Positions 29,650 through 64,000 are shown, counted from the stretch's first letter. The stretch: DNA of 64,000 nucleotides from an uncultured Coriobacteriia bacterium (GCA_948466335.1 CAOKAE010000002.1:28029-92028); one strand, 5' to 3'. The notes: generated by a model not told the origin, from the sequence alone. Numbers and translations: made by a program.

Positions 29650-29804
29650 GGATTGCTCCTTGTTGTTGTCGTGAGATGGCTTTGTTCTTTGCGGCGTATT
29701 ATCGCATGAGCATGTGAAGGACGCGTGATGAGCATTGCTCTCATCATTTCACCCGCAAGTGAGAAGATCGAGATTTCTCGACTCCGGCGCTTCGCGCTTC
29801 CGCT

Positions 29805-29839
29805 AATGAGACAAATGTGTCTGACCAATTTGTCTCATT
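29805..29839 (-). terminator. 12-bp perfect hairpin downstream of hypE
   Basis: Arms AATGAGACAAAT (29805-29816) and ATTTGTCTCATT (29828-29839). Confidence 0.45.
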
Positions 29840-30887: not shown

Positions 30888-31391
30888 CTACTCGAAAATG
30901 GAGCTGATGCTGTCGTAGTGGAGGAAGATGCCCTCGTCTGCCAGGGACTTGATTTCGGCCACGTCGGCAAACTTGAAATCCTCGACTTCCTCTTCCTGGA
31001 TTGCGACCATGGACTCGTCGGCGTCGAGCTCGAACCTGTAGACGACCATGATGTAGTTGTTGTCCTCGTTCGGGTCCTCACGCCTGTAGGTAAGCGCCTC
31101 GTGGGGCGTGGCCTCCGTCACGTCCAGGCCCGTCTCCTCGGCGAGCTCGCGCTTGGCGGCCATCTGCGGCTCCTCGCCCGCGCGCACGGCGCCACCGGGG
31201 AACTCCCACCAACCGGCACCCCAGGCCTTGTCCATCTTGCGTTGCGTGATGAGGTACTTCCCGTCAGGCCTCTGGACGACCGCGAGCACGGACACGTGGT
31301 ATTCGCCTGGCTGCATGTTCCAGTTATCACGTTCCATGGTCTTGCCCGTCTTGTTCATGTCCTTGTCGTAGATATCCCAGATTTCCATCAT
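30888..31391 (-). CDS. NUDIX hydrolase
   Basis: Nudix box GGAVRAGEEPQMAAKRELAEETGL. Confidence 0.85.
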   Translation of the reverse strand: MMEIWDIYDKDMNKTGKTMERDNWNMQPGEYHVSVLAVVQRPDGKYLITQRKMDKAWGAGWWEFPGGAVRAGEEPQMAAKRELAEETGLDVTEATPHEALTYRREDPNEDNNYIMVVYRFELDADESMVAIQEEEVEDFKFADVAEIKSLADEGIFLHYDSISSIFE

Positions 31392-31421
31392 CGGTCGCTT
31401 TCCGCGGAGAGTCAGTCTTGC

Positions 31422-32807
31422 TTACATCATGTTCTTGAGCTGGCTCAGGTCGATATCGCCCAAACCGGGAATGCCCATGCGCCTGCGGCGCTTGCCCTTC
31501 TTGCCGCTTTGCTGGTTCATCGCGCCCATCATCTTCTTGACCTGCTTGCGGGTCTCGTTGTAGCGCTTGATGAGCTGGTTGACCTGCTGAATCGACATGC
31601 CGCAGCCATCGGCGATGCGCTTGCGACGCGAACCGTTGAGCAGCGTGGGCTTGGCGCGTTCGGCCGGCGTCATCGAGTTGATGATTGCCTCGGTGCGGTC
31701 GAGCTCGTGCTCGTCGATCTGGCCCGCGTTGAGCGCCTTGTCGCCGCCGGGCAACGCGCTCACGAGCTTGCCGAGGCCACCCATCTTGCGGGTCTGGCCG
31801 ATGACCTGGAGGAAGTCGTTGAAGTCGAAGTCGGCGCGCGCAAGGCGCTCGGCCTCGGCCTCCTCCATCTCGCGGTCCTGAATCTCGATGGCGCGCTCGA
31901 TGACCGAGACGACGTCGCCCATGCCGAGGATGCGCTTGGCCATGCGGTCGGGATGGAATATCTCGAGGGAGTCGGGGCGTTCGCCCGCCGAGATGAACTC
32001 GATGGGCTTGCCCGTGACCTCGAGAATGGAGAGCGCGCCGCCACCGCGGGCATCGCCGTCCATCTTCGACATGATGACGCCGTCGAAGTCGACCTTCTCG
32101 GCAAACGCCGCGGCAACGTTGACGACATCCTGGCCGGTCATGGCATCGACGACCATGAGGATCTGGTCGGGTTCGACAGCGTCGCGAATCGCGACGGCCT
32201 CGTCCATCATCTCGTCATCGACATGCAGGCGGCCCGCCGTGTCGACGATGACAACGTCACGCAGGTTGTCGATGGCGTCGCGCACGCCCTCGGTGGCGAT
32301 CTTGACGGGGTCCTTGCCGTCGCCGCGATAGACGCGCACGTCCATCTCGTCGCCGAGCGTCTGCAGCTGGTCGGCCGCGGCGGGACGATACACGTCGCAG
32401 GCCACGAGCAGGGGGTTGTGGCCCTGCTTCTTCAGGCGGTAGGCGAGCTTGGCCGCAGCCGTCGTCTTACCGGAGCCCTGTAGGCCCACGAGCATGACGA
32501 CGCCGGGAATCCTGCTGCCGAAGGTGAGCTCGGCGGTCTTGCCGCCCAGGAGCTCGGTGAGCTCGTCGAGCACAATCTTGATGACGTTTTGGCCCGGCGT
32601 GAGCGAATCCATGACCTCGGCGGTCAGGCAACGCTCCTTGACGCGGCGCGTGAAGTTCTTGACGACCTTGTAGTTGACGTCTGCCTCGAGCAGCGCCATG
32701 CGAATCTCGCGAATGCCGTCGTTGATGTCGTCTTCGGTCAAGTGACCCTTGGACTTGAATCCGGAAAACGCCTTTTGCAGCTTGTCGGAAAGACTCTCGA
32801 ACATCAT
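31422..32807 (-). CDS. ffh: signal recognition particle protein Ffh
   Basis: NG domain (GLQGSGKTT, DTAGR, SKMDGDARGG) plus a Met-rich M domain. Confidence 0.95.
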   Translation of the reverse strand: MMFESLSDKLQKAFSGFKSKGHLTEDDINDGIREIRMALLEADVNYKVVKNFTRRVKERCLTAEVMDSLTPGQNVIKIVLDELTELLGGKTAELTFGSRIPGVVMLVGLQGSGKTTAAAKLAYRLKKQGHNPLLVACDVYRPAAADQLQTLGDEMDVRVYRGDGKDPVKIATEGVRDAIDNLRDVVIVDTAGRLHVDDEMMDEAVAIRDAVEPDQILMVVDAMTGQDVVNVAAAFAEKVDFDGVIMSKMDGDARGGGALSILEVTGKPIEFISAGERPDSLEIFHPDRMAKRILGMGDVVSVIERAIEIQDREMEEAEAERLARADFDFNDFLQVIGQTRKMGGLGKLVSALPGGDKALNAGQIDEHELDRTEAIINSMTPAERAKPTLLNGSRRKRIADGCGMSIQQVNQLIKRYNETRKQVKKMMGAMNQQSGKKGKRRRRMGIPGLGDIDLSQLKNMM

Positions 32808-32838
32808 TGCTCCTTATGAAAACCAGCGGCGCATCTTG
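32804..32838. repeat. 35-bp direct repeat, copy 1 (at the ffh start)
   Basis: TCATTGCTCCTTATGAAAACCAGCGGCGCATCTTG, identical to 35606-35640. Confidence 0.95.
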
Positions 32839-33007
32839 AATTCGCCAAAATCTCTGCAGCGAGATACTTGTCGCTGCGACAGTGGAGGTCAGCCACACCC
32901 TCGTCGATAAGAGGAAACAGCTCAGAATCGTAGAACACCTTCATGGCATCCTCGCTGCTCATGTCACCTATCTGGGCGATGAGCGAGATGATCCTCGCGT
33001 ACTTCAT
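32804..33007 (-). CDS. DUF3791-like small protein, copy b (C-terminus runs into repeat copy 1; stop overlaps ffh ATG)
   Basis: The start is set at MKYARIISLIAQIGDMSSEDAMKVFYDSELF (ATG 33007). It resembles copy a in size and pattern. Confidence 0.55.
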   Translation of the reverse strand: MKYARIISLIAQIGDMSSEDAMKVFYDSELFPLIDEGVADLHCRSDKYLAAEILANSRCAAGFHKEQ

Positions 33008-33036
33008 CTGCAAGACAGCTTGCTTGCCAGCATCGC

Positions 33037-33513
33037 TCACGAGGCCTCCCTTCCCTCGACAAAGGTCAGCAACATATCGAGTGCGCGTTGCGTCCGCATG
33101 CATATCTGGTCGTTGGGCTTAATGTAGATAAGACGTCCCAACGCCTCCTCCTCGGTTATCTCGCCCACAAAGAAAAGGTCGAGGGTGGTGAAAACCCTGT
33201 CGTCGGCAACGCCGCCGATGACCACGTCCCATTGGGTGTTGTCGTTTTCGTTGCGGCAGTCGAGGACAAACCGTATCCACTCGCTGTCGTAGGAATCGAA
33301 CTTCAGAACGTCGAGTTCGAGCAGGGCATCCTCGTCGAGCTCGTACTCGTTCACATAGGCTCTCGCGCCACGCCGCGTGAAGCGATTGGCGTAGTTCAGG
33401 GCCTGCTCCTCAAGCGTCGTTACGTAAAACCCGCGCCCAAAGTCGAGGGCGTCCCTAGAGTGTTCCACGTCTGGATGATCGACTATGCACTTGGAGGCAT
33501 GGAAGACCCTCAC
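33037..33513 (-). CDS. DUF3990-like protein
   Basis: 158 aa starting MRVFHAS...GRGFYVT.... The GTG start overlaps the upstream stop (GTGA). Confidence 0.65.
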   Translation of the reverse strand: MRVFHASKCIVDHPDVEHSRDALDFGRGFYVTTLEEQALNYANRFTRRGARAYVNEYELDEDALLELDVLKFDSYDSEWIRFVLDCRNENDNTQWDVVIGGVADDRVFTTLDLFFVGEITEEEALGRLIYIKPNDQICMRTQRALDMLLTFVEGREAS

Positions 33514-33725
33514 GCAACCAGCTCCTTCTCGCGCATGTAAGAGATGAGGTCATCCATCAGATAGTCCTTGCCGAAGGTGTGGAGGACATCATAGGAGGGA
33601 ACGATGTACTCGTAGAGAATCCCGCTCTCCTCGAGAAGATGGTAGACCGCGCGCTGCGACAAACCGAGGCGCTCGGAGAGGTTCCCTATGCAATACGTAA
33701 CGAACTCAATCTCTGCAGCACCCAT
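33510..33725 (-). CDS. DUF3791-like small protein, copy a
   Basis: 71 aa, MGAAEIEFVTYCIGNLSERLGLSQRAVYHLLEESGIL (HTH-like). Confidence 0.6.
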   Translation of the reverse strand: MGAAEIEFVTYCIGNLSERLGLSQRAVYHLLEESGILYEYIVPSYDVLHTFGKDYLMDDLISYMREKELVA

Positions 33726-33928
33726 GGGCTGCTCCGTTCTTTTCGACTTATACTGCCACTGCCAGCGAGGTCACTACCCCTCACCAACAGGCTCGCAGCG
33801 ATGAACCAGCTCAATTCTAGCAAGTTTCCTCATGCGGCAAAGCGTCATGTTTGCAACGAAAAGGTCAGGAAGCGCCTCCACATGGGCTTCTCTGTCTTTG
33901 CCGATTAAACCAACGGATACATAATCCG

Positions 33929-33937
33929 TGTTATAAT
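33929..33937 (+). promoter_or_regulatory. extended -10 (TGtTATAAT) followed by a TTAGCT..AGCTAA palindrome, upstream of the TA pair
   Basis: Read directly, 28 nt upstream of ATG 33965. Confidence 0.45.
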
Positions 33938-33964
33938 TAGCTTACCTTAGCTAAGGAGGTCGCC

Positions 33965-34210
33965 ATGTCACCGGTAACCATGCATGATGCCAAGACGAAT
34001 CTTTCCCGCTATGTCGCCCTTGTCGAGAGCGGAGCAGAAGAGCGCGTGGTGATCGCGCGTGGCGATACGCCTGCTGCCATGCTTGTTCCTTTTGTCCCGT
34101 TAGACACATCCAAGCGCTTGGATGTGGCCAAGGGGAAGTTCGTGGTGCCAGCAGACATCGACAAGCATAACGACGAGATTGCCGAGATCTTCGGCGAGGC
34201 TACCCTATGA
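33965..34210 (+). CDS. Phd/YefM-type antitoxin
   Basis: 81 aa starting MSPVTMHDAKTNLSRYVALVESG... The stop overlaps the toxin start (ATGA). Confidence 0.8.
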   Translation: MSPVTMHDAKTNLSRYVALVESGAEERVVIARGDTPAAMLVPFVPLDTSKRLDVAKGKFVVPADIDKHNDEIAEIFGEATL

Positions 34211-34617
34211 CGCGCTTGCTACTCGACACGCATGTCCTGCTGTTTTCGCTCGCCGAGTCGAGTCGCCTCGGACAGGACGCGCGTCTTCTCATAGCAAGTC
34301 CCGAAAACAGCGTCTTCTATAGCCCAGTCTCCCTTTGGGAAGTCGCAATAAAGCATGCGAAGCATCCCGAGGACATGCCGGTCTCACCGGATGAGCTTCT
34401 GCGATATTGCATCGAAGCGGGATATCGTGAAGCGCCCTTGACATCGGAACAGGTCTGCAAGCTATCGTCAATCGATGCCGATCCAGATAGCCCCATACAT
34501 TCCGACCCCTTCGATCGCATGCTCATCTGTCAGGCCATCGCTGAGAGCATGATATTGCTCACCTGCGACACAAAGATGCTCGCCTACGAAAACGAGCTCA
34601 TCTTGGATGCTAGGTAA
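34207..34617 (+). CDS. PIN-domain (VapC-like) toxin
   Basis: 136 aa with N-terminal LLLDTHVLL and downstream conserved acidic residues (SLWEVAIK, DPFDRMLI, LLTCD). Confidence 0.8.
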   Translation: MTRLLLDTHVLLFSLAESSRLGQDARLLIASPENSVFYSPVSLWEVAIKHAKHPEDMPVSPDELLRYCIEAGYREAPLTSEQVCKLSSIDADPDSPIHSDPFDRMLICQAIAESMILLTCDTKMLAYENELILDAR

Positions 34618-34653
34618 AAGCCAAGCTTTCTATTAAACAGCACAGAAAGCGTG

Positions 34654-35157
34654 TCATCGTCGCGGGGGCTTTCGCGAAACATAGCTTTGGCTTGCGTTAT
34701 ACACATTCGCCGTTTCGTTGAGTTGCTTGCACTCCTCGGCAGGTGACTCAGCGACATGGTGCGCACGTTCTCCCTCACGTTCATCATCCCATGCGCATTC
34801 GTTGATATTCCCGCTTGAATGCGAACGCCCGTACGATGGTTGATAGACTTGGTGTAAAGCTGGCATAGAAGGATTTGAGGCTGCGTCCTCATCCTTTCGC
34901 ATCTCCTCGTCATCTCTATGCTTCTTAGCACGAACATCCTCGTTCTCACCAGACGAACTTAGCAAGTGGCGCACTCCCATACGAATACAACGCGAAATCT
35001 TCAATACTAAGCACAAAAATCCCCCGCTAGATGAAGAGCTGTCATTATCCTCAACCAGAGCTTCATGCTGCGCTCTGCACGTGTTGATATCATCTGCAAC
35101 AGGTTCTTCTTCCAGTTTACATTCTCCCGCAGACCCTTTTTCATATCTGGCGCTCAT
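34654..35157 (-). CDS. hypothetical acidic/Ser-rich protein
   Basis: 167 aa from ATG 35157, preceded by AAAGGAG. No recognisable motif, AT-richer DNA and possibly non-coding. Confidence 0.35.
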   Translation of the reverse strand: MSARYEKGSAGECKLEEEPVADDINTCRAQHEALVEDNDSSSSSGGFLCLVLKISRCIRMGVRHLLSSSGENEDVRAKKHRDDEEMRKDEDAASNPSMPALHQVYQPSYGRSHSSGNINECAWDDEREGERAHHVAESPAEECKQLNETANVYNASQSYVSRKPPRR

Positions 35158-35404
35158 TCGAACTCCTTTGTCCGTTGAACACATCTGACAAAGCAATAAT
35201 ATAGGTCGCACTTGCATTGCTGGCGCAGAGCAAGCAGTGTCAACCCATGTATTACAAAGCACGAGTTCTTTACAGTGTGGAAATCAAAAAAGTGAGAGTG
35301 TTTCGACAATCAGTTTTTTCATAAAACGATAAAGGCATATCTACTTGTAGCTCTCCACCTTTGCCAAAACGGGCTTAGAGCAATCGCCAGGCAGCAAAGC
35401 GCAG

Positions 35405-35440
35405 CCATAAACAAGGAAGCCGCTTGGCAGAGCGGCTTCC
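35405..35440 (-). terminator. intrinsic terminator (serves ftsY and the orphan ftsY 3' end)
   Basis: Perfect 10-bp stem GGAAGCCGCT/AGCGGCTTCC followed by TTGTTTAT on the minus strand. Confidence 0.65.
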
Positions 35441-35464
35441 TCAAAGCAATCTGTGGCGTTCTGT

Positions 35465-35605
35465 TTACTTCACGCCGTACCAGCCGAAGTTTGTCAAACC
35501 GAGAGTGAGGTAGATATAGGTGAGCGGCGCCAAGATCTTTGGTTTAGGGGGAGATTTCTCGACTGCGCTCACTTCGTTCGCTTCGCTCGAAATGACAGAA
35601 GGCAG
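35465..35605 (-). pseudogene. orphan ftsY 3'-end-like fragment (repeat unit plus hydrophobic tail)
   Basis: Hand translation: LPSVISSEANEVSAVEKSPPKPKILAPLTYIYLTLGLTNFGWYGVK*. The first about 55 nt match ftsY 35789-35843 with about 6 differences. The frame is closed upstream by TGA. Confidence 0.55.
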
Positions 35606-35640
35606 TCATTGCTCCTTATGAAAACCAGCGGCGCATCTTG
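35606..35640. repeat. 35-bp direct repeat, copy 2 (true ftsY 3' end)
   Basis: Identical to 32804-32838. It encodes ...KMRRWFS* followed by GGAGCA ATGA. Confidence 0.95.
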
Positions 35641-36971
35641 TCGCGGAACGACTCTTGCTCTTCGGGCTCGGCGGCGGGCTCGGTCTCGGCGAACCACTCG
35701 TCTGCCGTCATGGAGGTCACTTCTGTTTCCTCGTCCTCGGGGGCCTCGGGCTCGTCTTCGGAATCATCAGCGAGCTCAGCCTCGTCGAGAGATTTCTCGA
35801 CTTCACTCACTTCGTTCGCTTCGCTCGAAATGGCAGAAGCGGACGTTACTTCATCCACGTTGCTCGAAATGACAGAGGGAGGCTCTTCGTCCACGTTGCT
35901 CGAAATGACAGAGGGCGCCACTTCGTTCGTCTCGCCCGAAATGACAGTGGGCGCAGCCTCGTTCGCTTCCTCCTGAACGACAGAAGCGGGCTCTTCACTT
36001 TCCTGTATGTCATCTCGACCGGAGGTGCCGTCAGGCACCGGAGTGGAGAGATCTCCGCCCTCCTCGACCTCGTCACGCATCTCGCCGAAGAGCGCCTCGG
36101 CGTACTCGCGCGGCTCGAAGGGTTGCAGGTCCTCGATGCCCTCGCCCACGCCCACGCGCAGGATGGGCAGCCCGAGCTCGTGGCTCACCGCCACGGCGAT
36201 GCCGCCCTTGGCCGTGCCATCGAGCTTGGTCATGATGACGCCGTCCAAATCGAGTGCCTTGTCGAACTCGCGCGCCTGCTGCAGGCCGTTCTGGCCCGTC
36301 GTCGCATCGATGACGAGCACGGTCTTCACGTCGACGTCCGCACGCTTGCGGGTGACGTTCACGACCTTCTGCAGCTCGCGCATGAGCTCGTCGGAGGTAT
36401 GCAGGCGGCCCGAGGTGTCGATGAGCACGAGGTCGCTACCCAGCTGCTCGGCGCGCTCGACGACGTCGTAGCACACGCTGGCCGGGTCGCTTCCGCGTTC
36501 GCGCTTCACGACTTCCACGCCGCTGCGCTCGCCCCAGATGTCCAACTGCTCGATGGCAGCCGCGCGGAAGGTATCGGCCGAGCCGATGAGCACCTTGCGG
36601 CCGCCGGCGTGGGCCTGGTTGGCGAGCTTGCCCACCGTCGTCGTCTTACCCGCGCCGTTGATGCCCACAAAAAGCACGCAGACGGGGTTCATGCGGAAGG
36701 GGTCGGGATCGGGCTCGGCAAAGAGACCGCTTATCTCGTCGGCGAGCATGTCGAGCACGGCGTAGGCATCGGGCAGTGCCTTGCGCGTCGCCTGGTCACG
36801 CAGGCGGTCGATGACCTCCATGGTCGCCTGGGCGCCCAGATCGCTCAGGATGAGCGTTTCCTCCAGGTCATCCCAGAAATCCTCGTCGAGCTTGGGACCA
36901 CGACGGAAGAGCACGTTCATTCGCTCGTTGAACTTCGCCCTGCTTCGATTGATCTTGTCTTTGAACGCCAT
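35616..36971 (-). CDS. ftsY: signal recognition particle receptor FtsY with acidic repeat-containing C-terminal extension
   Basis: NG domain at the N-terminus (GINGAGKTTT, DTSGR, TKLDGTAKGG), followed by about 150 acidic residues. Confidence 0.95.
   Translation of the reverse strand: MAFKDKINRSRAKFNERMNVLFRRGPKLDEDFWDDLEETLILSDLGAQATMEVIDRLRDQATRKALPDAYAVLDMLADEISGLFAEPDPDPFRMNPVCVLFVGINGAGKTTTVGKLANQAHAGGRKVLIGSADTFRAAAIEQLDIWGERSGVEVVKRERGSDPASVCYDVVERAEQLGSDLVLIDTSGRLHTSDELMRELQKVVNVTRKRADVDVKTVLVIDATTGQNGLQQAREFDKALDLDGVIMTKLDGTAKGGIAVAVSHELGLPILRVGVGEGIEDLQPFEPREYAEALFGEMRDEVEEGGDLSTPVPDGTSGRDDIQESEEPASVVQEEANEAAPTVISGETNEVAPSVISSNVDEEPPSVISSNVDEVTSASAISSEANEVSEVEKSLDEAELADDSEDEPEAPEDEETEVTSMTADEWFAETEPAAEPEEQESFRDKMRRWFS
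35805..35984 (-). repeat. five in-frame tandem 36-nt units inside ftsY
   Basis: The units translate to ASAISSEANEVS, SVISSNVDEVTS, SVISSNVDEEPP, TVISGETNEVAP and SVVQEEANEAAP. Confidence 0.9.
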
Positions 36972-36995
36972 GGAAATCTCCCTTGCAAGCAGGCG

Positions 36996-39900
36996 TTATT
37001 GCGCGCCGCTAAACTCCTCGACGTCGCGCGGCTGACCCGAATCCTCGGATGAGAGGCGAATCTGCTGGTCGAGCTTTTGCGACACGAGCTTGGACACGCC
37101 ATCGCTGCGCATGGAGACGCCGTAGAGCAAATCGGCCATCTCCATCGTACGCCTTTGATGGCTGATGATGATGAACTGCGTGGAGGAACGGATGCTGTCG
37201 AGATACGAGAGCAGGCGGCGTAGGTTGGTGTCGTCGAGGGCGGCCTCGACCTCGTCGAGGATGTAGAACGGCGTCTTACGCACGCGATACACCGCGAACA
37301 GCAGCGTCAAGGCGACCAACGACTGCTCGCCGCCGGATAGCAGCGTCTGCTTGCGCACCTTTTTGCCGCGGGGCTGGGCGTAGACCTCCACGCCCGTTTC
37401 CTCGGGATTATCAGGGTCGGTCAGCTCGAGGTGACCGTTGCCACCGGGAAAGAGCTGGGCGAAGACCTCCTCGAAGTTCGCGTTGACCTGCTTGAAGGTG
37501 TCGAGGAAGCGATTGCGCATCTTGCGGTCGATGGCCGCGACGATGCGTTGCAGCGCCTTGGCGGCGGCCTCCAGATCCTCGAGCTGCACGGCGATGAAAT
37601 CGCGTCGTTCTCGCAGCTTGAGGTATTCCTCGACGGCGACGGGATTGACCGAGCCGAGGTTGCCGAGCTTGCGGCGCAGGCTCTCGGCGCGCTTCTCCTC
37701 CTCCTCGCGATTCTCGGGCGCGTCGAGCGTGAGGGCGACCTCGAGCAGCACGCCGTGCGTCTCGGTGATGACCCCGATGGCCGCCTCGACCTTGACCTCG
37801 AGCTTGCTCTTCTCGATACGCACCTGCGTGAGCTTCTCGTTTGCCTCGTCGAGCTTGACCTGCTCGGCGGCGACGGCCTCGCGGGCCCCGTCGATGGTGG
37901 CGCGCAGGTCACCCTGGCCGGCCTGCTCGATCTTTGCGCGGTCACTCAGAACCTCGGCCTTCTCCTGCACGCCCTCGCGCAGGCTCGTGAAGACGTCGTA
38001 GAGGGGCTCGACGCGCAGGCGCAGAATCTCGAGGTTGCCCTCGGTCTCGCGCGAGACCTGAAGGGTCTCCTCGAGCTGCGCAATCTCCTTCTTGAGAGAC
38101 TCGATCTGCTTGCCAAGGTGGCGTTCGCGCTCGCGCACCGTGGCAAGATCGACCTGTATGGTCGAGATCTCGCGCGTGAAGCTGTCTTCGCGGCTCGCCA
38201 GGGCGGCGCTCTTGTCGCGTGCGGCGGCGGCCTTCTCGTCCAGTTCGTCCTTGCGCGCGGCCAGCTCGTTCTTGCGGTCGGTGAGCTCCTTGACCTTCGC
38301 GCGGCTCGCGGCGGTGTCTTCGGCGATGCGAGCACGACGCTGCTCGATCTGATTCTTCTCCTGCAGCTGGTCGGTAATCGCCTGCTCGAGACGACCCACC
38401 TCCTCGCGCAGGCTATCGGCCTCTCCGGAGACCTGGGCGATGGACTGCGAGAGCTCGAAGTCGTCTGCCTGCGCGATGTGCAGGTTGTTGAGCGCCTTGT
38501 CGACGTCGCGTTCGCTCTCCACGACGGCCTGGGCCATCACGGGTTCCTCGGCCTGCAGTTCGCGCAGGCGACGCTTGCGGCTCAGCACGCCCTCGGTATC
38601 GGTGACCTGCGTGCCGATGGTGACCTTGCCGTTGGGCCAGGCGACCACGCCGTCACGCGTGACGAAGCGCGATCCGGTCGCGTCTGCCGCGGCGGCCTCG
38701 ATGGCATCGATGGCCGAATCGAGCACGTACACGTCGCCGAGCAGCAGCTCCGCCACGCGCGCGTGTTCGGGAGCGTAGCTGACCTCGTCGAGCAGGCGCG
38801 TGCCCGTCTTGGCGCGTGCGCGCTCGATGGGCGCGCCGCCGATGTTGACGAGAGAGAGCTCGCCGCCGGAAAGCTCCGCCTTCAGGAGCCGGTCGACGAG
38901 CCCGGCCGAGGCAGAGGAGTCCTTCGTCATGAGACCGAACATGTCCGACCCGAGCAGATGCTCGACAAGGCTCTCGAGTGCGGGCGGGGCCGAGAAGAGC
39001 TCGCTCACGGGCGAGACGACGTCATCATCTCGGTGATCCAGCGCCCAGGCAAGCAGGGGGCGCGAACCGTCGACGGCCTTGTCGACGTGCTCGAGACCCT
39101 TGATCTCAGCGCGTAGCGAACTAAGCTGTTCGCGCTTCTCCTCGAGCCGTGCGCGGCAGTCATCGTGGATGCGCACGCGGCTGTCGATATCCGATTTCGC
39201 GGCCAGGGAGTCTGCCTGCAGCTGCGTGAGCTGCACCTCGAGGTCTTCCAGATGGCTCCGTCGCGTCGCGAGGGTCGTTTGCGTCGAGACGTGCGCGTCC
39301 TCTATCTGCGAGATGCGGTTGACGAGGAGGCCATCCTCGACATCGGCGGTCGAAAGGCTCTCGGTTGCCCTGAGCTCCGCGAGCGTGCACTCGTCGAACT
39401 CCTTCTCGCAGGCGCGAACCTGGGCGTTTGCCTCGGTGAGCTCGCGCTCTGCCTGCTCGTGCAGCTCATGGACCTCGTTTGCCCCCGCCTGCTGACGTTC
39501 GAGCTGCGACGTGAGCTCGTCGAGCTGCGCGACCGTGTCGCGATGGTCGGACTCGTAGGTCTCGAGACGGGCGATGACGTCGACGCGGTTCGCCTCGGAG
39601 CGATGGACCGCCTGACGCAGCTCGGAAAGCCGCGTCACCATGTTGCGACCCTTCTCCTCGAGCAGGAGCATGCCCGAGTCAAGGCGGTCCAGGGCGGTCT
39701 GGCAGCGACGACGCTGCTCGGCTATGTCACCGGCGAACAGCCCCTTCTCCTCGAGCAGGTGCTGGTACTTCTCGAGTTCGCGGTTCTTCTCGTCCACGCG
39801 GAAGCGCGCGAGCTCGACGAGCGAGTCGGCCTCCTTCTCGAGCCGTTCCGTCTCGCGCCAGGTGTCCTGGAGCCTACGCAGGTCATCGACGGCCAGCGAG

Positions 39901-40580
39901 AGCTCGACGGCCTTGAGTTCTTCGGAAAGCTGCTCATGCTGACGGGCGCGGCTCGCCTGGCGCTCGAGGGGCTTGAGCTGGCGATCGATCTCGCCCGCGA
40001 TGTCGTGCACGCGCTGGAGCTCGGCATCCATGTTCTTGAGCTTGCGCGCGGAGCGCTCCTTGCGTTTCTTGTGCTTGAGGATGCCCGCGGCCTCCTCGAT
40101 GAGCAGACGACGGTCCTCGGGACGGGCGCGCAGGACGTTTTGCAACGACCCCTGGGAGATGATCGAGTGCGTGTCACGACCGAGGCCGGAATCGTTGAGG
40201 ATGTCGAGGACGTCCATGAGACGCGACGGCGAGCCGTTGATGAGGTACTCGCTCTCGCCGCTACGGTACATGCGACGCGTGACGACGACCTCGTTGAAAT
40301 CGAGGGGAAGCGTGCCGTCGGAATTGTCGAGCACGAGGTCGACTTCGGCCAGACCCACCGCCTGACGTGCCGACGAACCGGCGAAGATGACGTCCTCCAT
40401 GGCCTGGCCGCGCAGTTGCTTGGCGCTCTGCTCGCCCAGGACCCACAAAACGGCATCCGAGATGTTCGATTTACCCGATCCATTTGGGCCGACGACAACC
40501 GTCATCCCCGGCTCGAGCGAGAGAACGGCTCGGTCAGCAAACGACTTGAAACCCTTGAGAACGAGTGACTTGAGGTACAC
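36996..40580 (-). CDS. smc: chromosome segregation protein SMC
   Basis: 1194 aa. Walker A GPNGSGKSN, long coiled coils and hinge, LSGGEQSL, Walker B FYILDEVEAALD. Confidence 0.95.
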   Translation of the reverse strand: MYLKSLVLKGFKSFADRAVLSLEPGMTVVVGPNGSGKSNISDAVLWVLGEQSAKQLRGQAMEDVIFAGSSARQAVGLAEVDLVLDNSDGTLPLDFNEVVVTRRMYRSGESEYLINGSPSRLMDVLDILNDSGLGRDTHSIISQGSLQNVLRARPEDRRLLIEEAAGILKHKKRKERSARKLKNMDAELQRVHDIAGEIDRQLKPLERQASRARQHEQLSEELKAVELSLAVDDLRRLQDTWRETERLEKEADSLVELARFRVDEKNRELEKYQHLLEEKGLFAGDIAEQRRRCQTALDRLDSGMLLLEEKGRNMVTRLSELRQAVHRSEANRVDVIARLETYESDHRDTVAQLDELTSQLERQQAGANEVHELHEQAERELTEANAQVRACEKEFDECTLAELRATESLSTADVEDGLLVNRISQIEDAHVSTQTTLATRRSHLEDLEVQLTQLQADSLAAKSDIDSRVRIHDDCRARLEEKREQLSSLRAEIKGLEHVDKAVDGSRPLLAWALDHRDDDVVSPVSELFSAPPALESLVEHLLGSDMFGLMTKDSSASAGLVDRLLKAELSGGELSLVNIGGAPIERARAKTGTRLLDEVSYAPEHARVAELLLGDVYVLDSAIDAIEAAAADATGSRFVTRDGVVAWPNGKVTIGTQVTDTEGVLSRKRRLRELQAEEPVMAQAVVESERDVDKALNNLHIAQADDFELSQSIAQVSGEADSLREEVGRLEQAITDQLQEKNQIEQRRARIAEDTAASRAKVKELTDRKNELAARKDELDEKAAAARDKSAALASREDSFTREISTIQVDLATVRERERHLGKQIESLKKEIAQLEETLQVSRETEGNLEILRLRVEPLYDVFTSLREGVQEKAEVLSDRAKIEQAGQGDLRATIDGAREAVAAEQVKLDEANEKLTQVRIEKSKLEVKVEAAIGVITETHGVLLEVALTLDAPENREEEEKRAESLRRKLGNLGSVNPVAVEEYLKLRERRDFIAVQLEDLEAAAKALQRIVAAIDRKMRNRFLDTFKQVNANFEEVFAQLFPGGNGHLELTDPDNPEETGVEVYAQPRGKKVRKQTLLSGGEQSLVALTLLFAVYRVRKTPFYILDEVEAALDDTNLRRLLSYLDSIRSSTQFIIISHQRRTMEMADLLYGVSMRSDGVSKLVSQKLDQQIRLSSEDSGQPRDVEEFSGAQ

Positions 40581-61583: not shown

Positions 61584-62462
61584 TTAGCGCTTACGAAGCG
61601 CCTCGGTTGAATCGACGTTACGCAGCAATGACGGGTCATCGAAAAGCGGCGTGCAGATGAGCGCCTCACGATTGAGAACGTTATCCGCGAAGCCCAGTAC
61701 GTTCTCGTAGAAGGCGATGAGATACGCATCGTCTGGCATGATGCTGGCAGTCGCGTTGCGATACATCGCCCTGACGAGCGCATCACGATAGAAGCGCGCA
61801 TGCTTCTCGAAGGGCTCGTTCGTGACATCGAAACCTAGATGGTTCAAATAGAGCTCAGAGAACACGGCGATCGTGCGCGTGTTTCCCTCGTAGAAAGGAT
61901 GGACTTGCCAGAGAAACGCAATAGTTTGGCAGAAGTCCTTGAGCTCATCGCCAGTAAACGTCGTGTATGCCCTCCCCTGCTCTCGCTCGATGGCGCTGCG
62001 CAGGGACATCGCATAGGTCATCGGATCTGCGTAGAGAACGCTATCGCCGTTCAGTATCTCTTCTTGCTTGACCATGCGCTCGGTCTTGAATTCGCCCGGA
62101 TGGTAGATTTCCTCGTCCAAATCCTGGAAGAGGTGACGATGGATTTGCGGAAGGAAGTCCGACGAGAGCGCGAACGGCGAGCTTGCCAGCAACTCCGCTA
62201 TACGCTGGCTGACTAGGTCTGCCTCTCGATGGGCATCATCGTTGCCGTCATGGTGATAGGAACGGATAAGCTCGCCGGTCTTCGCCATACCATACTCGCC
62301 TGCGATATACCCACGAGCCGTCTCCTCGAGATAGGGCGAGACCTCGAGACCATCGACTTCCTGCAAGCCAATGGCCACGGCCCAGTAGTGCCTGCGGGCA
62401 GCCTCGGAGGTATGCTCGCGTGCTGGCTCGTAATCATGGGTGTCGGGGCAATCCGCCGTCAT
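61584..62462 (-). CDS. Fic/DOC family protein with degenerate active-site motif
   Basis: HPFYEGNTRTIA compared with the canonical HxFx(D/E)GNGRxxR. Confidence 0.8.
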   Translation of the reverse strand: MTADCPDTHDYEPAREHTSEAARRHYWAVAIGLQEVDGLEVSPYLEETARGYIAGEYGMAKTGELIRSYHHDGNDDAHREADLVSQRIAELLASSPFALSSDFLPQIHRHLFQDLDEEIYHPGEFKTERMVKQEEILNGDSVLYADPMTYAMSLRSAIEREQGRAYTTFTGDELKDFCQTIAFLWQVHPFYEGNTRTIAVFSELYLNHLGFDVTNEPFEKHARFYRDALVRAMYRNATASIMPDDAYLIAFYENVLGFADNVLNREALICTPLFDDPSLLRNVDSTEALRKR

Positions 62463-63226: not shown

Positions 63227-64000
63227 CTACTTCATATCTGCTGTGATGCAGAATGCGGCATACAGCGGGAAACTTCGGAGCACTGCCTTAGTTCCCGCGA
63301 TGGGCTCAATGCCAAAGTTCAGCTCTGAAAGCCGTATCGCGAAAGGCGAGCGGCCCTCGACCATGAAGCGATGGAGGCTCTTCGCCCTCACATTGCGCGA
63401 AGACTTCACCTCGACCGGCACCACTTCAGCGAATCTGTTCTGAAACACGAAGTCGACTTCTCCATTGCCGACCTTCTCGTTTGGCATCCAATAAAACGTC
63501 TGAACATCATTGGCCGTCAGTGCTTGCATGACGTAATTCTCCGCAAGGGCACCACGAAAATCCGAAGCGAGACTGGTACGCATTCCTTCGTCGAGGAACA
63601 GCTCCGGTGCGATTCCGAACTTGAAGAACATAAGACCGGTATCGGCCACGTATACCTTGAAGAAGCTGCCCTCCTCGTCGTTGAATGGTGCAAGCGGCGC
63701 GGTATTATCGCAAGTCAAATCGTTTATCGTAACAATGCCGGCAGCAGCAAGCCAGTCCAAGGGTTCCAGGAGGCGCTCACGACGGCCACCACGCACCACC
63801 TCCGAGTACTTGAACTTCTTGGTGGAGGCGCGAAGCAACTGCTTGGGCAGGCTGTCCCATATGCGTTTGGCTGCTATGCCACTAATTCCATTTTCGGGAT
63901 CGGTCATGTCGGCAGTGTAGGTTGCGTTGATTTCGCCTTGAACCTCCAGGGCACCTTGGAAAGTGCCAGTAGCTCGATACGTATCAAGTACGCGGGGCAT
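63227..64000 (-). CDS. C-terminal part of a DUF4143-type AAA ATPase (truncated by window end)
   Basis: The frame is open to the window edge. Only the non-ATPase C-terminal half is visible. The family call is from overall pattern. Confidence 0.5.
   Translation of the reverse strand: MPRVLDTYRATGTFQGALEVQGEINATYTADMTDPENGISGIAAKRIWDSLPKQLLRASTKKFKYSEVVRGGRRERLLEPLDWLAAAGIVTINDLTCDNTAPLAPFNDEEGSFFKVYVADTGLMFFKFGIAPELFLDEGMRTSLASDFRGALAENYVMQALTANDVQTFYWMPNEKVGNGEVDFVFQNRFAEVVPVEVKSSRNVRAKSLHRFMVEGRSPFAIRLSELNFGIEPIAGTKAVLRSFPLYAAFCITADMK

What the first reader, a model, noticed from the sequence alone, without database searches (positions are those of the whole stretch)
32804..35640. Perfect 35-bp direct repeats bracket a 2.8-kb islet wedged exactly between ftsY and ffh
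TCATTGCTCCTTATGAAAACCAGCGGCGCATCTTG occurs at 32804-32838 and at 35606-35640. The repeat equals the last 25 nt of ftsY (KMRRWFS*), the GGAGCA spacer/RBS and ATGA of ffh. The ancestral state was therefore ftsY-stop-RBS-ffh, and the intervening 2767 bp is an insertion that duplicated its target. The islet carries a DUF3791/DUF3990/DUF3791 cassette, a Phd/VapC pair, an orphan ORF, a displaced ftsY 3' end and the terminator now used by ftsY, but no integrase or transposase. As a result the essential ffh gene is cut off from ftsY transcription and lies directly downstream of islet genes, with the stop of the last islet ORF overlapping the ffh ATG.
Basis: seen in the sequence. Interest (0 to 1): 0.65.

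Follow-up and report, generated by a model that had tools for sequence, protein, structure and literature searches.

The report
Defence islet wedged between ftsY and ffh
A 2.8-kb patch of accessory toxin and defence genes sits exactly between two essential protein-targeting genes of a gut Coriobacteriia bacterium, tolerated because the 35-bp gene junction was duplicated on both sides, and related strains show the empty site and other cassette mixes there.

Summary
The 35-bp repeat is exact at 32804-32838 and 35606-35640, and it consists of the last 25 nt of ftsY, the GGAGCA spacer and ATGA. The predicted empty site (ftsY-TAA-GGAGCA-ATGATG-ffh) occurs in 20 contigs from related species. Two sister species carry both empty and occupied forms.

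This is not one fresh mobile insertion. It is an integrase-free mosaic of modules: a REP-like element with a terminator, a conserved 167-aa orphan gene, a Phd/VapC pair, and a promoter followed by the three-gene candidate defence system PDC-M13 (DUF3791, ART-like DUF3990, DUF3791-like).

Five occupied haplotypes in three species share these modules in different orders. Their repeat boundaries differ, one has a decayed internal repeat copy, and their cassettes are far more diverged than the host backbone.

The "displaced ftsY 3' end" is really a dispersed REP-like element.

In every occupied haplotype a conserved extended -10 promoter lies upstream of ffh. A strong terminator now ends ftsY.

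Best reading: duplication of the junction made a permissive slot between two coupled essential genes, and cassettes then accreted there by illegitimate and homologous recombination. A recombinase acting in trans is not excluded.

Moderately interesting; a new variant of a known kind.

The parts
35616..36971 (-). ftsY (451 aa): NG domain plus a C-terminal acidic tail ending in FRDKMRRWFS*
   Evidence: Pfam SRP54_N and SRP54. The identical protein is on 23 contigs.
35606..35640 (-). Left repeat copy (DR_L). It supplies the last 7 codons and stop of ftsY. Its RBS and ATGA are now functionless duplicates.
35544..35609 (-). 21-codon by-product ORF (MTAFCHFERSERSERSREISP*) that starts at the duplicated ffh RBS and ATG and reads into the REP-like element
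   Evidence: read directly from the sequence.
35548..35602 (-). REP-like dispersed palindromic element (TGTCATTTCGAGC...GTCGAGAAATCTC).
   Evidence: 94% identical to the in-frame ftsY copy at 35789-35839. Other copies lie in intergenic sites of relatives and at window 29770-29784. It is homologous to the left end of the L120 islet, where the 'tail' frame is closed by a stop.
35405..35442 (-). Intrinsic terminator that now ends the smc-ftsY transcript: 12-bp GC-rich stem at 35413-35442 followed by a U-rich tail
   Evidence: RNA fold -27.7 kcal/mol, z = -3.4.
34654..35157 (-). Orphan gene, 167 aa, with an AAAGGAG RBS; function unknown
   Evidence: No family hit. It is kept as a gap-free 167-aa ORF at 70% identity in L133 of another species.
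33965..34617 (+). Type II toxin-antitoxin pair: Phd/YefM-like antitoxin (33965-34210) and PIN/VapC toxin (34207-34617), with a 4-nt overlap. It is transcribed towards ftsY. The operator and promoter with a TATAAT box lie at about 33898-33960.
   Evidence: Pfam PIN 1.6e-8; PhdYeFM 2e-6, which is below the gathering score. The module is shared with L023 (90%), L133 (89%) and L135 (82%).
33814..33828 (-). Promoter P: GAAACTTGCTAGAAT, an extended -10 (TGCTAGAAT). It lies about 89 nt upstream of PDC-M13A and is the only predicted promoter upstream of ffh.
   Evidence: Conserved in all five occupied haplotypes. It sits before M13A or directly against the repeat that leads into ffh. Its function is inferred, not measured.
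33510..33725 (-). PDC-M13A (DUF3791, 71 aa)
   Evidence: Pfam DUF3791 1.5e-22. PADLOC PDC-M13A 7e-27.
33037..33513 (-). PDC-M13B (DUF3990, 158 aa), an ADP-ribosyltransferase-clan putative toxin
   Evidence: Pfam DUF3990 8e-48. PADLOC PDC-M13B 1.7e-57. ART clan membership from PMC7955679. Rhs5-CT toxin domain from PMC4524185.
32804..33040 (-). PDC-M13C (78 aa, DUF3791-like). Its last 11 codons and stop are read from the right repeat in a +1 frame relative to ftsY. Its TGA overlaps the ffh ATG.
   Evidence: PADLOC PDC-M13C 3.5e-23. The native stop is seen in L132 (69 aa) and L127 (74 aa).
32804..32838 (-). Right repeat copy (DR_R). It supplies the ffh leader, RBS and start codon.
   Evidence: Its 3' part, CTGGTTTTCATAAGGAGCAATGATG, is invariant in all haplotypes.
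31422..32804 (-). ffh (460 aa counted from the second ATG)
   Evidence: Pfam SRP54_N, SRP54 and SRP_SPB. Gene calls.

Best explanation
SHOWN. The segment 32839-35605 is an accessory islet in a lineage-specific recombination hot spot at the 6-nt junction between the essential SRP genes ftsY and ffh. The unoccupied junction (ftsY-TAA-GGAGCA-ATGATG-ffh) is the ancestral and commonest state in the genus. The islet has no recombinase and is a mosaic of separately exchangeable modules. In order from ftsY they are: a REP-like element with an intrinsic terminator; a conserved orphan gene; an inverted Phd/VapC toxin-antitoxin pair; and promoter P followed by the three-gene candidate defence operon PDC-M13 (DUF3791, ART-like DUF3990, DUF3791-like). 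Four other occupied haplotypes in three species reuse these modules in other combinations.

INFERRED FUNCTION OF THE REPEAT. The 35-bp repeat is the duplicated gene junction. The left copy keeps the FtsY C-terminus and stop. The right copy keeps the ffh leader, RBS and start. This is what lets DNA sit between two essential genes whose signals are packed into those 35 bp.

INFERRED ORIGIN. A short duplication of the junction created a permissive slot. In L132 the duplicated segment is 35 nt but shifted, reaching 15 nt into ffh, and taken together the haplotypes span a 46-nt stretch of the junction. The duplication was either a tandem duplication (a 22-nt tandem copy of this very segment exists in L120) or an illegitimate insertion with staggered ends. 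Cassettes were then added, swapped and deleted inside the slot by illegitimate recombination, and by homologous recombination anchored on ffh, ftsY, the repeat and promoter P, in an HFIR-like accretion. The non-functional inner ends of the two copies erode. Whole haplotypes move within and between species through the conserved flanks, or are lost by repeat-by-repeat recombination.

INFERRED EXPRESSION. ftsY transcription now stops at the islet terminator. ffh is transcribed from islet promoter P as the fourth gene of the PDC-M13 operon. It is translationally coupled to M13C, whose frame runs through the right repeat to a TGA that overlaps the ffh ATG.
For: Empty site: L024-L027 and L103-L118, 20 contigs in all.

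Polymorphism: in one species L111 is empty, L119-L126 carry H3 and L132 carries H4, with ffh 98.2-100% identical. In another species L025 is empty and L133 carries H5, at 98.8%.

Variable junctions: the left copy ends at TAA|, TAAGGA|, TAAGGAG|...CAATGA| or +15 of ffh, and always keeps the ftsY stop. The right copy starts at CAAGATG or at GCTGG, and always keeps CTGGTTTTCATAAGGAGCAATGATG.

Other repeat copies: a 22-nt tandem copy of the ftsY end in L120 (D8). A decayed internal promoter-plus-repeat joint in L133 (score 25, P about 0.04).

Old alleles: PDC-M13 is 87.9% identical between H3 and H4 where ffh is 99.3%. The TA module is 90.1% identical between H1 and H2 where ffh is 97.2%.

No mobile-element signature: no recombinase in the islet or the window. 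No hit to phages, plasmids or viral contigs.

Expression features: promoter P is conserved in all occupied haplotypes. Terminator. Cargo identity.

Family context: other genera with filled ftsY-ffh gaps show no duplication.

Precedent: integrase-free, anchor-based accretion has been proposed for T6SS/Rhs arrays (PMC5361080).
Against: The two 35-bp copies in the window are identical although the cassettes look old, so recent gene conversion or re-creation of a copy has to be assumed. The 5' boundary of the right copy (|CAAGATG) is the same next to three different upstream sequences (H1; H2 and H5; the H5 internal copy), which could mean a preferred breakpoint. No step of the recombination history was observed directly. 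Only five occupied haplotypes are known, and the left end of H5 was not recovered. Promoter P and the terminator are predictions only. The consensus promoter scan did not list P because it has no -35 match. A recombinase encoded elsewhere in the genome cannot be excluded.
Confidence: 0.6

Rival explanations
1. The repeat is the core of an attachment site. A tyrosine or serine recombinase encoded elsewhere (in trans) integrates small cassettes at the ftsY|ffh junction and regenerates both gene ends, as prophages and islands do at tRNA genes or icd. Serial integration gives tandem accretion with internal att copies.
For: A repeat of 25-35 bp is typical of att identity blocks. The 5' edge of the right copy (|CAAGATG) is the same in H1, H2, H5 and the internal H5 copy. 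The internal copy in H5 looks like an attL/attR joint in a tandem array. Presence or absence varies in near-identical backgrounds without any imported flank.
Against: No recombinase was found in any of the five haplotypes or in the 64-kb window. The left junction differs in every haplotype. The right junction of the same PDC-M13 cassette differs between H1 and H3/H4. The repeat sequence was found only at ftsY-ffh sites: 16 of 16 metagenome hits, and none in viral contigs. The islet has no hit in phage or plasmid records.
Confidence: 0.15
2. The islet cycles by host homologous recombination alone. Recombination between the two repeat copies releases a circle carrying one copy. That circle re-enters an empty junction in another cell by a single (Campbell-type) crossover within the 25-46 bp of identity, recreating flanking repeats.
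For: Direct repeats flank every occupied haplotype whose two ends were recovered (H1-H4). Empty and occupied alleles coexist in the same species with identical flanks. The right copy carries the resident species' C/T variant in H5.
Against: It does not explain the first duplication. 35 bp is near the lower limit for RecA-dependent exchange (general knowledge, not tested here). The H3 repeats share only 9-11 nt of uninterrupted identity. No circle junction was seen, although the collections searched did not contain the window's clone.
Confidence: 0.15
3. One reading: one recent insertion of a 2.77-kb mobile DNA that duplicated 35 bp of target on entry.
For: The 35/35 identity. Lower GC. The empty site exists in relatives.
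Against: The interior is a mosaic whose parts occur separately in other haplotypes: TA only in L023, PDC-M13 only in L132. Cassette alleles are 10-20% diverged between strains of one species. There are no terminal inverted repeats and no transposase. 35 bp is far longer than the target duplications typically made by known transposases (general knowledge).
Confidence: 0.05
4. Assembly artefact: the repeat collapses or mis-joins contigs.
For: Logan unitigs (k=31) break inside the repeat.
Against: More than ten independent SPAdes or MEGAHIT contigs from different samples span both copies with 100% identity. Related haplotypes have the same architecture.
Confidence: 0.01

Closest known systems
Prophages and genomic islands that integrate into the 3' end of a conserved gene and carry a replacement gene end (tRNA/tmRNA-targeting islands; e14 and phage 21 in icd). 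From general knowledge.
   Same: Direct repeats made of the gene's 3' end flank the insert. The interrupted gene stays functional. Serial integration can give tandem arrays with internal repeat copies.
   Different: No integrase is present in the islet, the other haplotypes or the window. The junctions vary. The repeat must also preserve the RBS and start of a second essential gene. The islet is only 0.8-3 kb.
Effector/immunity and Rhs arrays built by 'C-terminal displacement', proposed to arise by homology-facilitated illegitimate recombination (Kirchberger et al. 2017, PMC5361080)
   Same: Accretion of toxin/immunity-type cassettes without an integrase, next to a conserved anchor gene. Orphaned fragments of the anchor are left behind. 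Finished arrays are exchanged between strains by homologous recombination.
   Different: Here the anchor is a housekeeping gene junction (ftsY|ffh), not a polymorphic toxin gene. What is duplicated is a stop-RBS-start junction rather than a toxin 3' end. The cargo is not functionally linked to the anchor genes.
Integron cassette arrays
   Same: One insertion point. Promoter-proximal cassettes. Small TA and defence-type cargo. Repeat-bounded modules.
   Different: No intI and no attC-type imperfect inverted repeats. The repeat is host coding and RBS sequence. The promoter is carried by a cassette and drives a host essential gene.
Defence islands and integration hot spots between core genes (general knowledge); PADLOC candidate system PDC-M13
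   Same: Low-GC accessory defence and TA genes flanked by conserved core genes. Presence or absence is polymorphic and the cargo varies. All three PDC-M13 components match in order.
   Different: Hot spots are not normally placed inside a 6-nt, translationally coupled junction of two essential genes. They also do not normally make the downstream essential gene depend on a cassette promoter.
An evolutionary unit made of a 3' ORF end, the intergenic region and the next 5' ORF end, in the S. aureus lpl cluster (Tsuru & Kobayashi 2008, PMC2568036)
   Same: A segment spanning the end of one ORF, the spacer and the start of the next behaves as the unit that is copied and recombined.
   Different: That case concerns tandem paralogues recombining at a conserved central region. 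This one concerns a duplicated junction between two different essential genes framing foreign DNA.

Membership tests
Site-specific integrative element (att-flanked island) | Integrase or recombinase gene in or next to the element | tested here: not met
   Pfam on all islet ORFs, on all window genes, and on gene calls in the other haplotypes shows none.
Site-specific integrative element (att-flanked island) | Direct repeats (att core) at both ends that regenerate the target gene | tested here: met
   35/35 bp in the window; 32 bp in L023; 34/35 in L132.
Site-specific integrative element (att-flanked island) | Identical crossover positions in independent insertions | tested here: not met
   The left junction differs in H1-H4. 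The PDC-M13 right junction differs between H1 and H3/H4.
Transposon / IS | Transposase, terminal inverted repeats and a short target duplication | tested here: not met
   No transposase. No inverted repeats at the islet ends. The duplication is 35 bp.
Integron | intI, attI and attC-bounded cassettes | tested here: not met
   No integrase. The module joints carry host junction sequence, not imperfect palindromes.
Type II TA, Phd/YefM-VapC | A small antitoxin gene overlapping a downstream PIN-domain toxin gene | tested here: met
   PIN 1.6e-8, above the cut-off. The genes overlap by 4 nt (33965-34210 and 34207-34617). The Phd hit (27.9 bits) is below the gathering score of 29.8.
Type II TA, Phd/YefM-VapC | Toxicity neutralised by the antitoxin; autoregulated promoter | not testable with these tools
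   Only a palindromic TTAGCT...AGCTAA operator-like sequence and a TATAAT box are visible.
PADLOC candidate defence system PDC-M13 | Three adjacent genes matching the A, B and C profiles | tested here: met
   A 7e-27, B 1.7e-57, C 3.5e-23, co-oriented and overlapping.
PADLOC candidate defence system PDC-M13 | Protection against phage | not testable with these tools
   The system is only a candidate. The one paper found that names it is a census (PMC13356809).
HFIR / displacement-type cassette array | Conserved anchor next to variable cassettes, with orphaned anchor fragments and no recombinase | tested here: met
   The first 15 nt of ffh are duplicated in L132. Repeat copies lie at the joints. 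There are five module orders.
HFIR / displacement-type cassette array | Demonstrated one-sided homologous and one-sided illegitimate joining | not testable with these tools
   This needs transformation or conjugation experiments.
REP/BIME-like or RPE-like dispersed palindromic element (for 35548-35602) | Multiple dispersed copies in intergenic regions, with a conserved arm-hairpin-arm architecture | tested here: met
   Copies at window 29770-29784, L111:2430 and 12587, L115:7706 and 9078, L119:5470, and L135.
REP/BIME-like or RPE-like dispersed palindromic element (for 35548-35602) | An associated RAYT-type transposase | not tested
   None in the window. The rest of the genome was not available.

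The most novel reading that the evidence does not exclude
Duplicating the stop-RBS-start junction of two essential, translationally coupled genes created a recombinase-free 'landing pad'. It has become a trans-species, modular defence and TA cassette array. Because ffh is now transcribed only from a cassette-borne promoter and is coupled to the last defence gene, the array is effectively addictive. Partial deletions would silence ffh, so only a precise repeat-to-repeat loss or a whole-haplotype replacement is tolerated. SRP levels would then become tied to the regulation of a toxin-based defence operon.
Probability: 0.3. Interest if true: 0.65.

Novelty: new variant of a known kind. Interest (0 to 1): 0.5.

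Why it matters
The locus shows how foreign DNA can colonise one of the least permissive places in a genome, a 6-nt junction between two essential, coupled genes, without any dedicated recombinase. Duplicating the junction is enough. The result is a long-lived, shuffling array of toxin-antitoxin and candidate defence cassettes shared across species.

It also gives a natural case in which an essential housekeeping gene (ffh, the SRP protein) has been handed over to the promoter of a putative ADP-ribosyltransferase-based defence operon. That is directly testable by RNA-seq or 5' RACE, and it could link SRP supply to defence regulation or stabilise the islet.

For annotation, it warns that REP-like elements translated in frame in the FtsY tail can mimic displaced gene fragments.

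Tried and rejected
(1) 'Displaced ftsY 3' end with a TM anchor'. The frame LPSVISSEANEVSAVEKSPPKPKILAPLTYIYLTLGLTNFGWYGVK* looked like an alternative tail. The homologous L120 sequence has a stop after EKSRS, and the conserved part is a dispersed REP-like element. Rejected.

(2) Internal decayed repeat copies in the window's islet. A local-alignment scan against a 67-nt junction probe gave nothing significant in H1 (best P = 0.13, inside vapC coding sequence). The MAFFT-suggested similarity at the orphan gene's 3' end was P = 0.78. Rejected. Only the L133 internal copy stands.

(3) 'GCTGGTTCAT' after promoter P as a repeat remnant. It aligns with unrelated 5'-UTR sequence in L120 and L132. Rejected.

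(4) Phage or plasmid origin. No hits in the phage and plasmid collections, viral contigs or PHROGs.

(5) Duplicated ftsY ends in other genera with filled ftsY-ffh gaps. None found; best ungapped score 10 or less.

(6) Known RNAs in 31000-37500. No Rfam hit at E <= 0.1.

(7) NCBIfam gave no names for the islet proteins.

(8) Population information from contigs carrying identical FtsY, Ffh or DUF3990. All belong to one clone (99.9-100% nt identity), so they say nothing about excision.

(9) Imported flanking tracts as a trace of transfer. ffh next to the islet in L122 is identical to the empty L111 over 458 nt, so no tract is visible.

Full report
OBSERVATION. The 35-mer TCATTGCTCCTTATGAAAACCAGCGGCGCATCTTG occurs exactly twice, at 32804-32838 and 35606-35640. 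No shuffle of the window gave a match (also family D7). All genes of interest lie on the minus strand: smc 36996-40580, ftsY 35616-36971 and ffh 31422-32807 (Pfam). Gene callers use the second ATG (MFESLS..., 460 aa), which also has the better spacing from GGAG. The 2767 bp between the copies has GC 44-58% against about 65% outside, and GC3 0.61-0.76 against 0.80-0.89. More than 20 independently assembled metagenome contigs carry the identical structure. This rules out an assembly artefact. It also shows that these contigs are one clone and say nothing about population variation.

ANATOMY. From ftsY towards ffh the islet contains the following parts.
- The left repeat copy.
- A 51-55-nt element (35548-35602) that is 94% identical to an internal ftsY segment.
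- A 12-bp-stem intrinsic terminator at 35413-35442 (-27.7 kcal/mol, z = -3.4).
- An orphan ORF of 167 aa (34654-35157) with a good RBS.
- A Phd-like/PIN pair on the opposite strand (33965-34617).
- A non-coding stretch containing GAAACTTGCTAGAAT (33828-33814), an extended -10 promoter.
- Three overlapping genes: DUF3791 (33510-33725), DUF3990 (33037-33513) and a 78-aa ORF (32804-33040).

These three genes match the A, B and C components of the PADLOC candidate defence system PDC-M13, with E-values of 7e-27, 1.7e-57 and 3.5e-23. DUF3990 belongs to the Pfam ADP-ribosyltransferase clan (PMC7955679). It is also the C-terminal toxin domain of a Serratia Rhs effector (PMC4524185). The cassette is therefore most likely a toxin-based module. 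The last 11 codons of the C gene are read from the right repeat copy in another frame, and its TGA overlaps the ffh ATG. No recombinase domain is present in the islet or in any gene of the 64-kb window. The duplicated RBS and ATG in the left copy open a 21-codon by-product ORF.

THE EMPTY SITE EXISTS. A scan of species-representative genomes with Ffh places the window in an uncultured gut Coriobacteriia/Eggerthellaceae genus. Four relatives (L024, L025, L026, L027; Ffh 97-87% identical) have ...TGGTTTTCATAAGGAGC(A/G)ATGATGTTCGAG... with nothing between ftsY and ffh. A metagenome scan for the repeat core found 16 contigs. Every one carries a single copy in the empty configuration. Across 80 Eggerthellaceae loci, tight ftsY-ffh coupling (gap -11 to about 50 nt) is the common state. 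About 14 lineages have 1-9 kb of other genes in the gap (MBL-fold hydrolases, GNAT, PIN/XRE modules), but none shows any duplication of the ftsY end.

OTHER OCCUPIED HAPLOTYPES. I call the window H1.
- H2 (L023): the closest relative, 97% ffh nt identity. It has only vapC-phd plus the promoter motif. These are flanked by a 32-bp repeat that starts 3 nt earlier and ends 6 nt earlier than the window's.
- H3 (L119-L126): the ftsY end, then a 22-nt tandem second copy of it, then REP-like elements, a DUF5648 gene, promoter P, PDC-M13 and a decayed right copy (GGAATGCACTGGTTTTCATAAGGAGCAATGATG).
- H4 (L132): only P and PDC-M13. Its left copy runs 15 nt into ffh (...ATGATGTTCGAGAGT|ACCC...). M13C keeps its own TAG stop and is 69 aa.
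- H5 (L133/L134): DUF5648, then P, M13A and a 22-codon stub of M13B. This stub is joined to a second P followed by a decayed repeat copy (CAGAACGCGCTGTTGGTTTTATAGGGAAC). Then come a terminator, the orphan gene, the inverted TA pair, a third P and an intact right copy in front of ffh. The internal copy is significant in an alignment scan (P about 0.04) and sits directly after a P motif.

The left ends of H1 and H3 are homologous over about 130 nt: REP element, spacer, then GGTTTGACAAA. The P and PDC-M13 blocks of H1, H3 and H4 align colinearly through the right copy into ffh.

POPULATION PATTERN. Clustering on the first 400 nt of ffh gives eight species-level groups. Three of them contain occupied sites.
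- Window (H1) and L023 (H2).
- L111 (empty) with L119, L121, L122 and L123 (H3) and L132 (H4). L111 and L122 are 100% identical over the first 400 nt.
- L025 (empty) with L133 (H5), at 98.8%.

In the second group the backbone is essentially identical right up to the junction. L122's ffh has no difference from L111 for 458 nt. Cassette alleles are much more diverged than their hosts. PDC-M13 is 87.9% identical between H3 and H4 where ffh is 99.3%. The TA module is 90.1% identical between H1 and H2 where ffh is 97.2%. PDC-M13 in H1 against H3/H4 is 82-83% where ffh is 88-89%. The islet alleles are therefore old and circulate among lineages. The window's islet is not a fresh insertion.

THE 'DISPLACED ftsY END' IS A REP-LIKE ELEMENT. 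The motif TGTCATTTCGAGC...GTCGAGAAATCTC also occurs outside ftsY. It is found in relatives at L111:2430 and 12587, L115:7706 and 9078, and L119:5470. It occurs in the window at 29770-29784, downstream of an AIRS-domain gene, with the same arm-hairpin-arm layout. It also lies next to the TA module in an unrelated genome, L135. The FtsY C-terminal tail in this genus is itself built from in-frame copies of this element and a partner unit (GDLSTPVPDGTSGRDD). Copy number varies between strains of one species. The putative TM-tail frame is closed by a stop in L120.

MECHANISM. What is shown is the following.
- The empty state is ancestral.
- The islet has no recombinase and is modular.
- The repeat boundaries differ among haplotypes. 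The left copy always keeps the ftsY stop. The right copy always keeps CTGGTTTTCATAAGGAGCAATGATG.
- A tandem duplication of this very segment exists (L120).
- A repeat copy lies at an internal joint (L133).
- Promoter P is present upstream of ffh in every occupied haplotype.

From this I infer three things. First, the duplication is what makes an insertion viable, because both essential genes have their signals packed into these 35 bp. Second, a short duplication of the junction produced a permissive slot. The haplotypes together span a 46-nt stretch of the junction, reaching +15 of ffh in L132. Third, cassettes then accreted and turned over in that slot by illegitimate recombination and by homologous recombination anchored on ffh, ftsY, the repeat and P. 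This resembles the HFIR model proposed for T6SS/Rhs arrays (PMC5361080). The useless inner ends of the copies erode. Whole haplotypes are gained or lost through the conserved flanks or by recombination between the copies.

For expression, I infer that ftsY now terminates at 35405-35442 and that ffh is transcribed from P as the fourth gene of the PDC-M13 operon, translationally coupled to M13C.

The main weaknesses are these. The perfect 35/35 identity in an apparently old array has to be explained by conversion or re-creation of a copy. The right copy shows the same |CAAGATG boundary next to three different upstream sequences. None of the steps has experimental support.

RIVALS. A recombinase acting in trans on an att-like junction would explain the repeat length and the constant right boundary. 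It is disfavoured by the variable junctions, by the absence of any recombinase, and by the fact that the sequence occurs nowhere else. A cycle of RecA-mediated circle excision and reintegration is compatible with the polymorphism, but it does not explain how the repeat first arose. A single recent insertion with a target-site duplication is contradicted by the mosaic structure and the allele divergence. An assembly artefact is excluded.

VERDICT. The locus is a new variant of known kinds of hot-spot or accretion islets. Three features are notable: its position inside an essential, coupled gene junction; the junction duplication that permits this; and the capture of ffh by a promoter carried on a defence cassette.

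Noticed in passing
window 35641-36070 (ftsY tail); also L111:9300-9640, L116, L120:2150-2400: FtsY in this genus has no N-terminal acidic domain. Instead it has a C-terminal acidic tail of about 150 aa, built largely from in-frame copies of the dispersed REP-like element and a partner unit (GAGATCTCTCC...CCGGTCGAGATGAC, translated as GDLSTPVPDGTSGRDD). Copy number differs by in-frame indels (54 nt and 18 nt) between strains of one species. This resembles Rickettsia palindromic elements inside genes.
   Followed up: partly
window 35616-35650; loci: FtsY tails across Eggerthellaceae end in a short basic/aromatic motif (KMRRWFS, FWKRLFE, KWWQKLF, HFWERWF). This may be a C-terminal membrane-targeting helix that replaces the usual N-terminal one.
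   Followed up: no
window 29700-29830 (-): A second copy of the REP-like element (…GGAGTCGAGAAATCTC GATCT…) lies just downstream of the AIRS-domain gene. The orthologous site in L111, L115 and L119 carries longer arrays of the element.
   Followed up: partly
window 35544-35609 (-): The duplicated ffh RBS and ATG in the left repeat open a 21-codon ORF (MTAFCHFERSERSERSREISP*). L132 has an analogous 22-codon ORF that starts with the first five Ffh residues.
   Followed up: partly
L120:2380-2423: A 22-nt tandem duplication of the ftsY end (AAGATGCGTCGCTGGTTTTCGT / AAAATGCGCCACTGGTTTTCGT, 86% identical). It shows that this junction segment duplicates on its own.
   Followed up: yes
L042, L049, L072, L078, L083, L086, L090, L093, L096, L100, L102: Other Eggerthellaceae genera (Gordonibacter, Rubneribacter, Adlercreutzia and others) have 1-4 kb between ftsY and ffh. 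The gaps encode MBL-fold hydrolase-like, GNAT-like, PIN and XRE/HTH ORFs. None has duplicated ftsY ends.
   Followed up: partly
L135:1-6500 and L136: An 82%-identical Phd/VapC module lies next to several DUF5648 genes at a locus unrelated to ftsY-ffh. A REP-like right arm abuts the vapC stop. TA and DUF5648 are also neighbours in L133.
   Followed up: partly
window 61584-62462 (-) and 63227-64000 (-): A low-GC3 (0.70) Fic/DOC-domain gene and a DUF4143 gene lie near the window end. They may be another accessory or TA-like patch.
   Followed up: no
L114:2605-2653: The contig ends with a Nextera adapter sequence (CTGTCTCTTATACACATCT) right after ffh codon 5, so it is a chimeric contig end and not a junction variant.
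   Followed up: yes
L120:2575-2590; L111 around 12690: Runs of 13-14 G follow REP-like elements. They could be real homopolymers or sequencing artefacts.
   Followed up: no
window 34654-35157 (-) and L133:5448-5951: The orphan gene is kept as a gap-free 167-aa ORF at 70% identity in two species. It has no hit in Pfam, NCBIfam, PADLOC or PHROGs. It always lies next to the vapC end of the TA module.
   Followed up: partly
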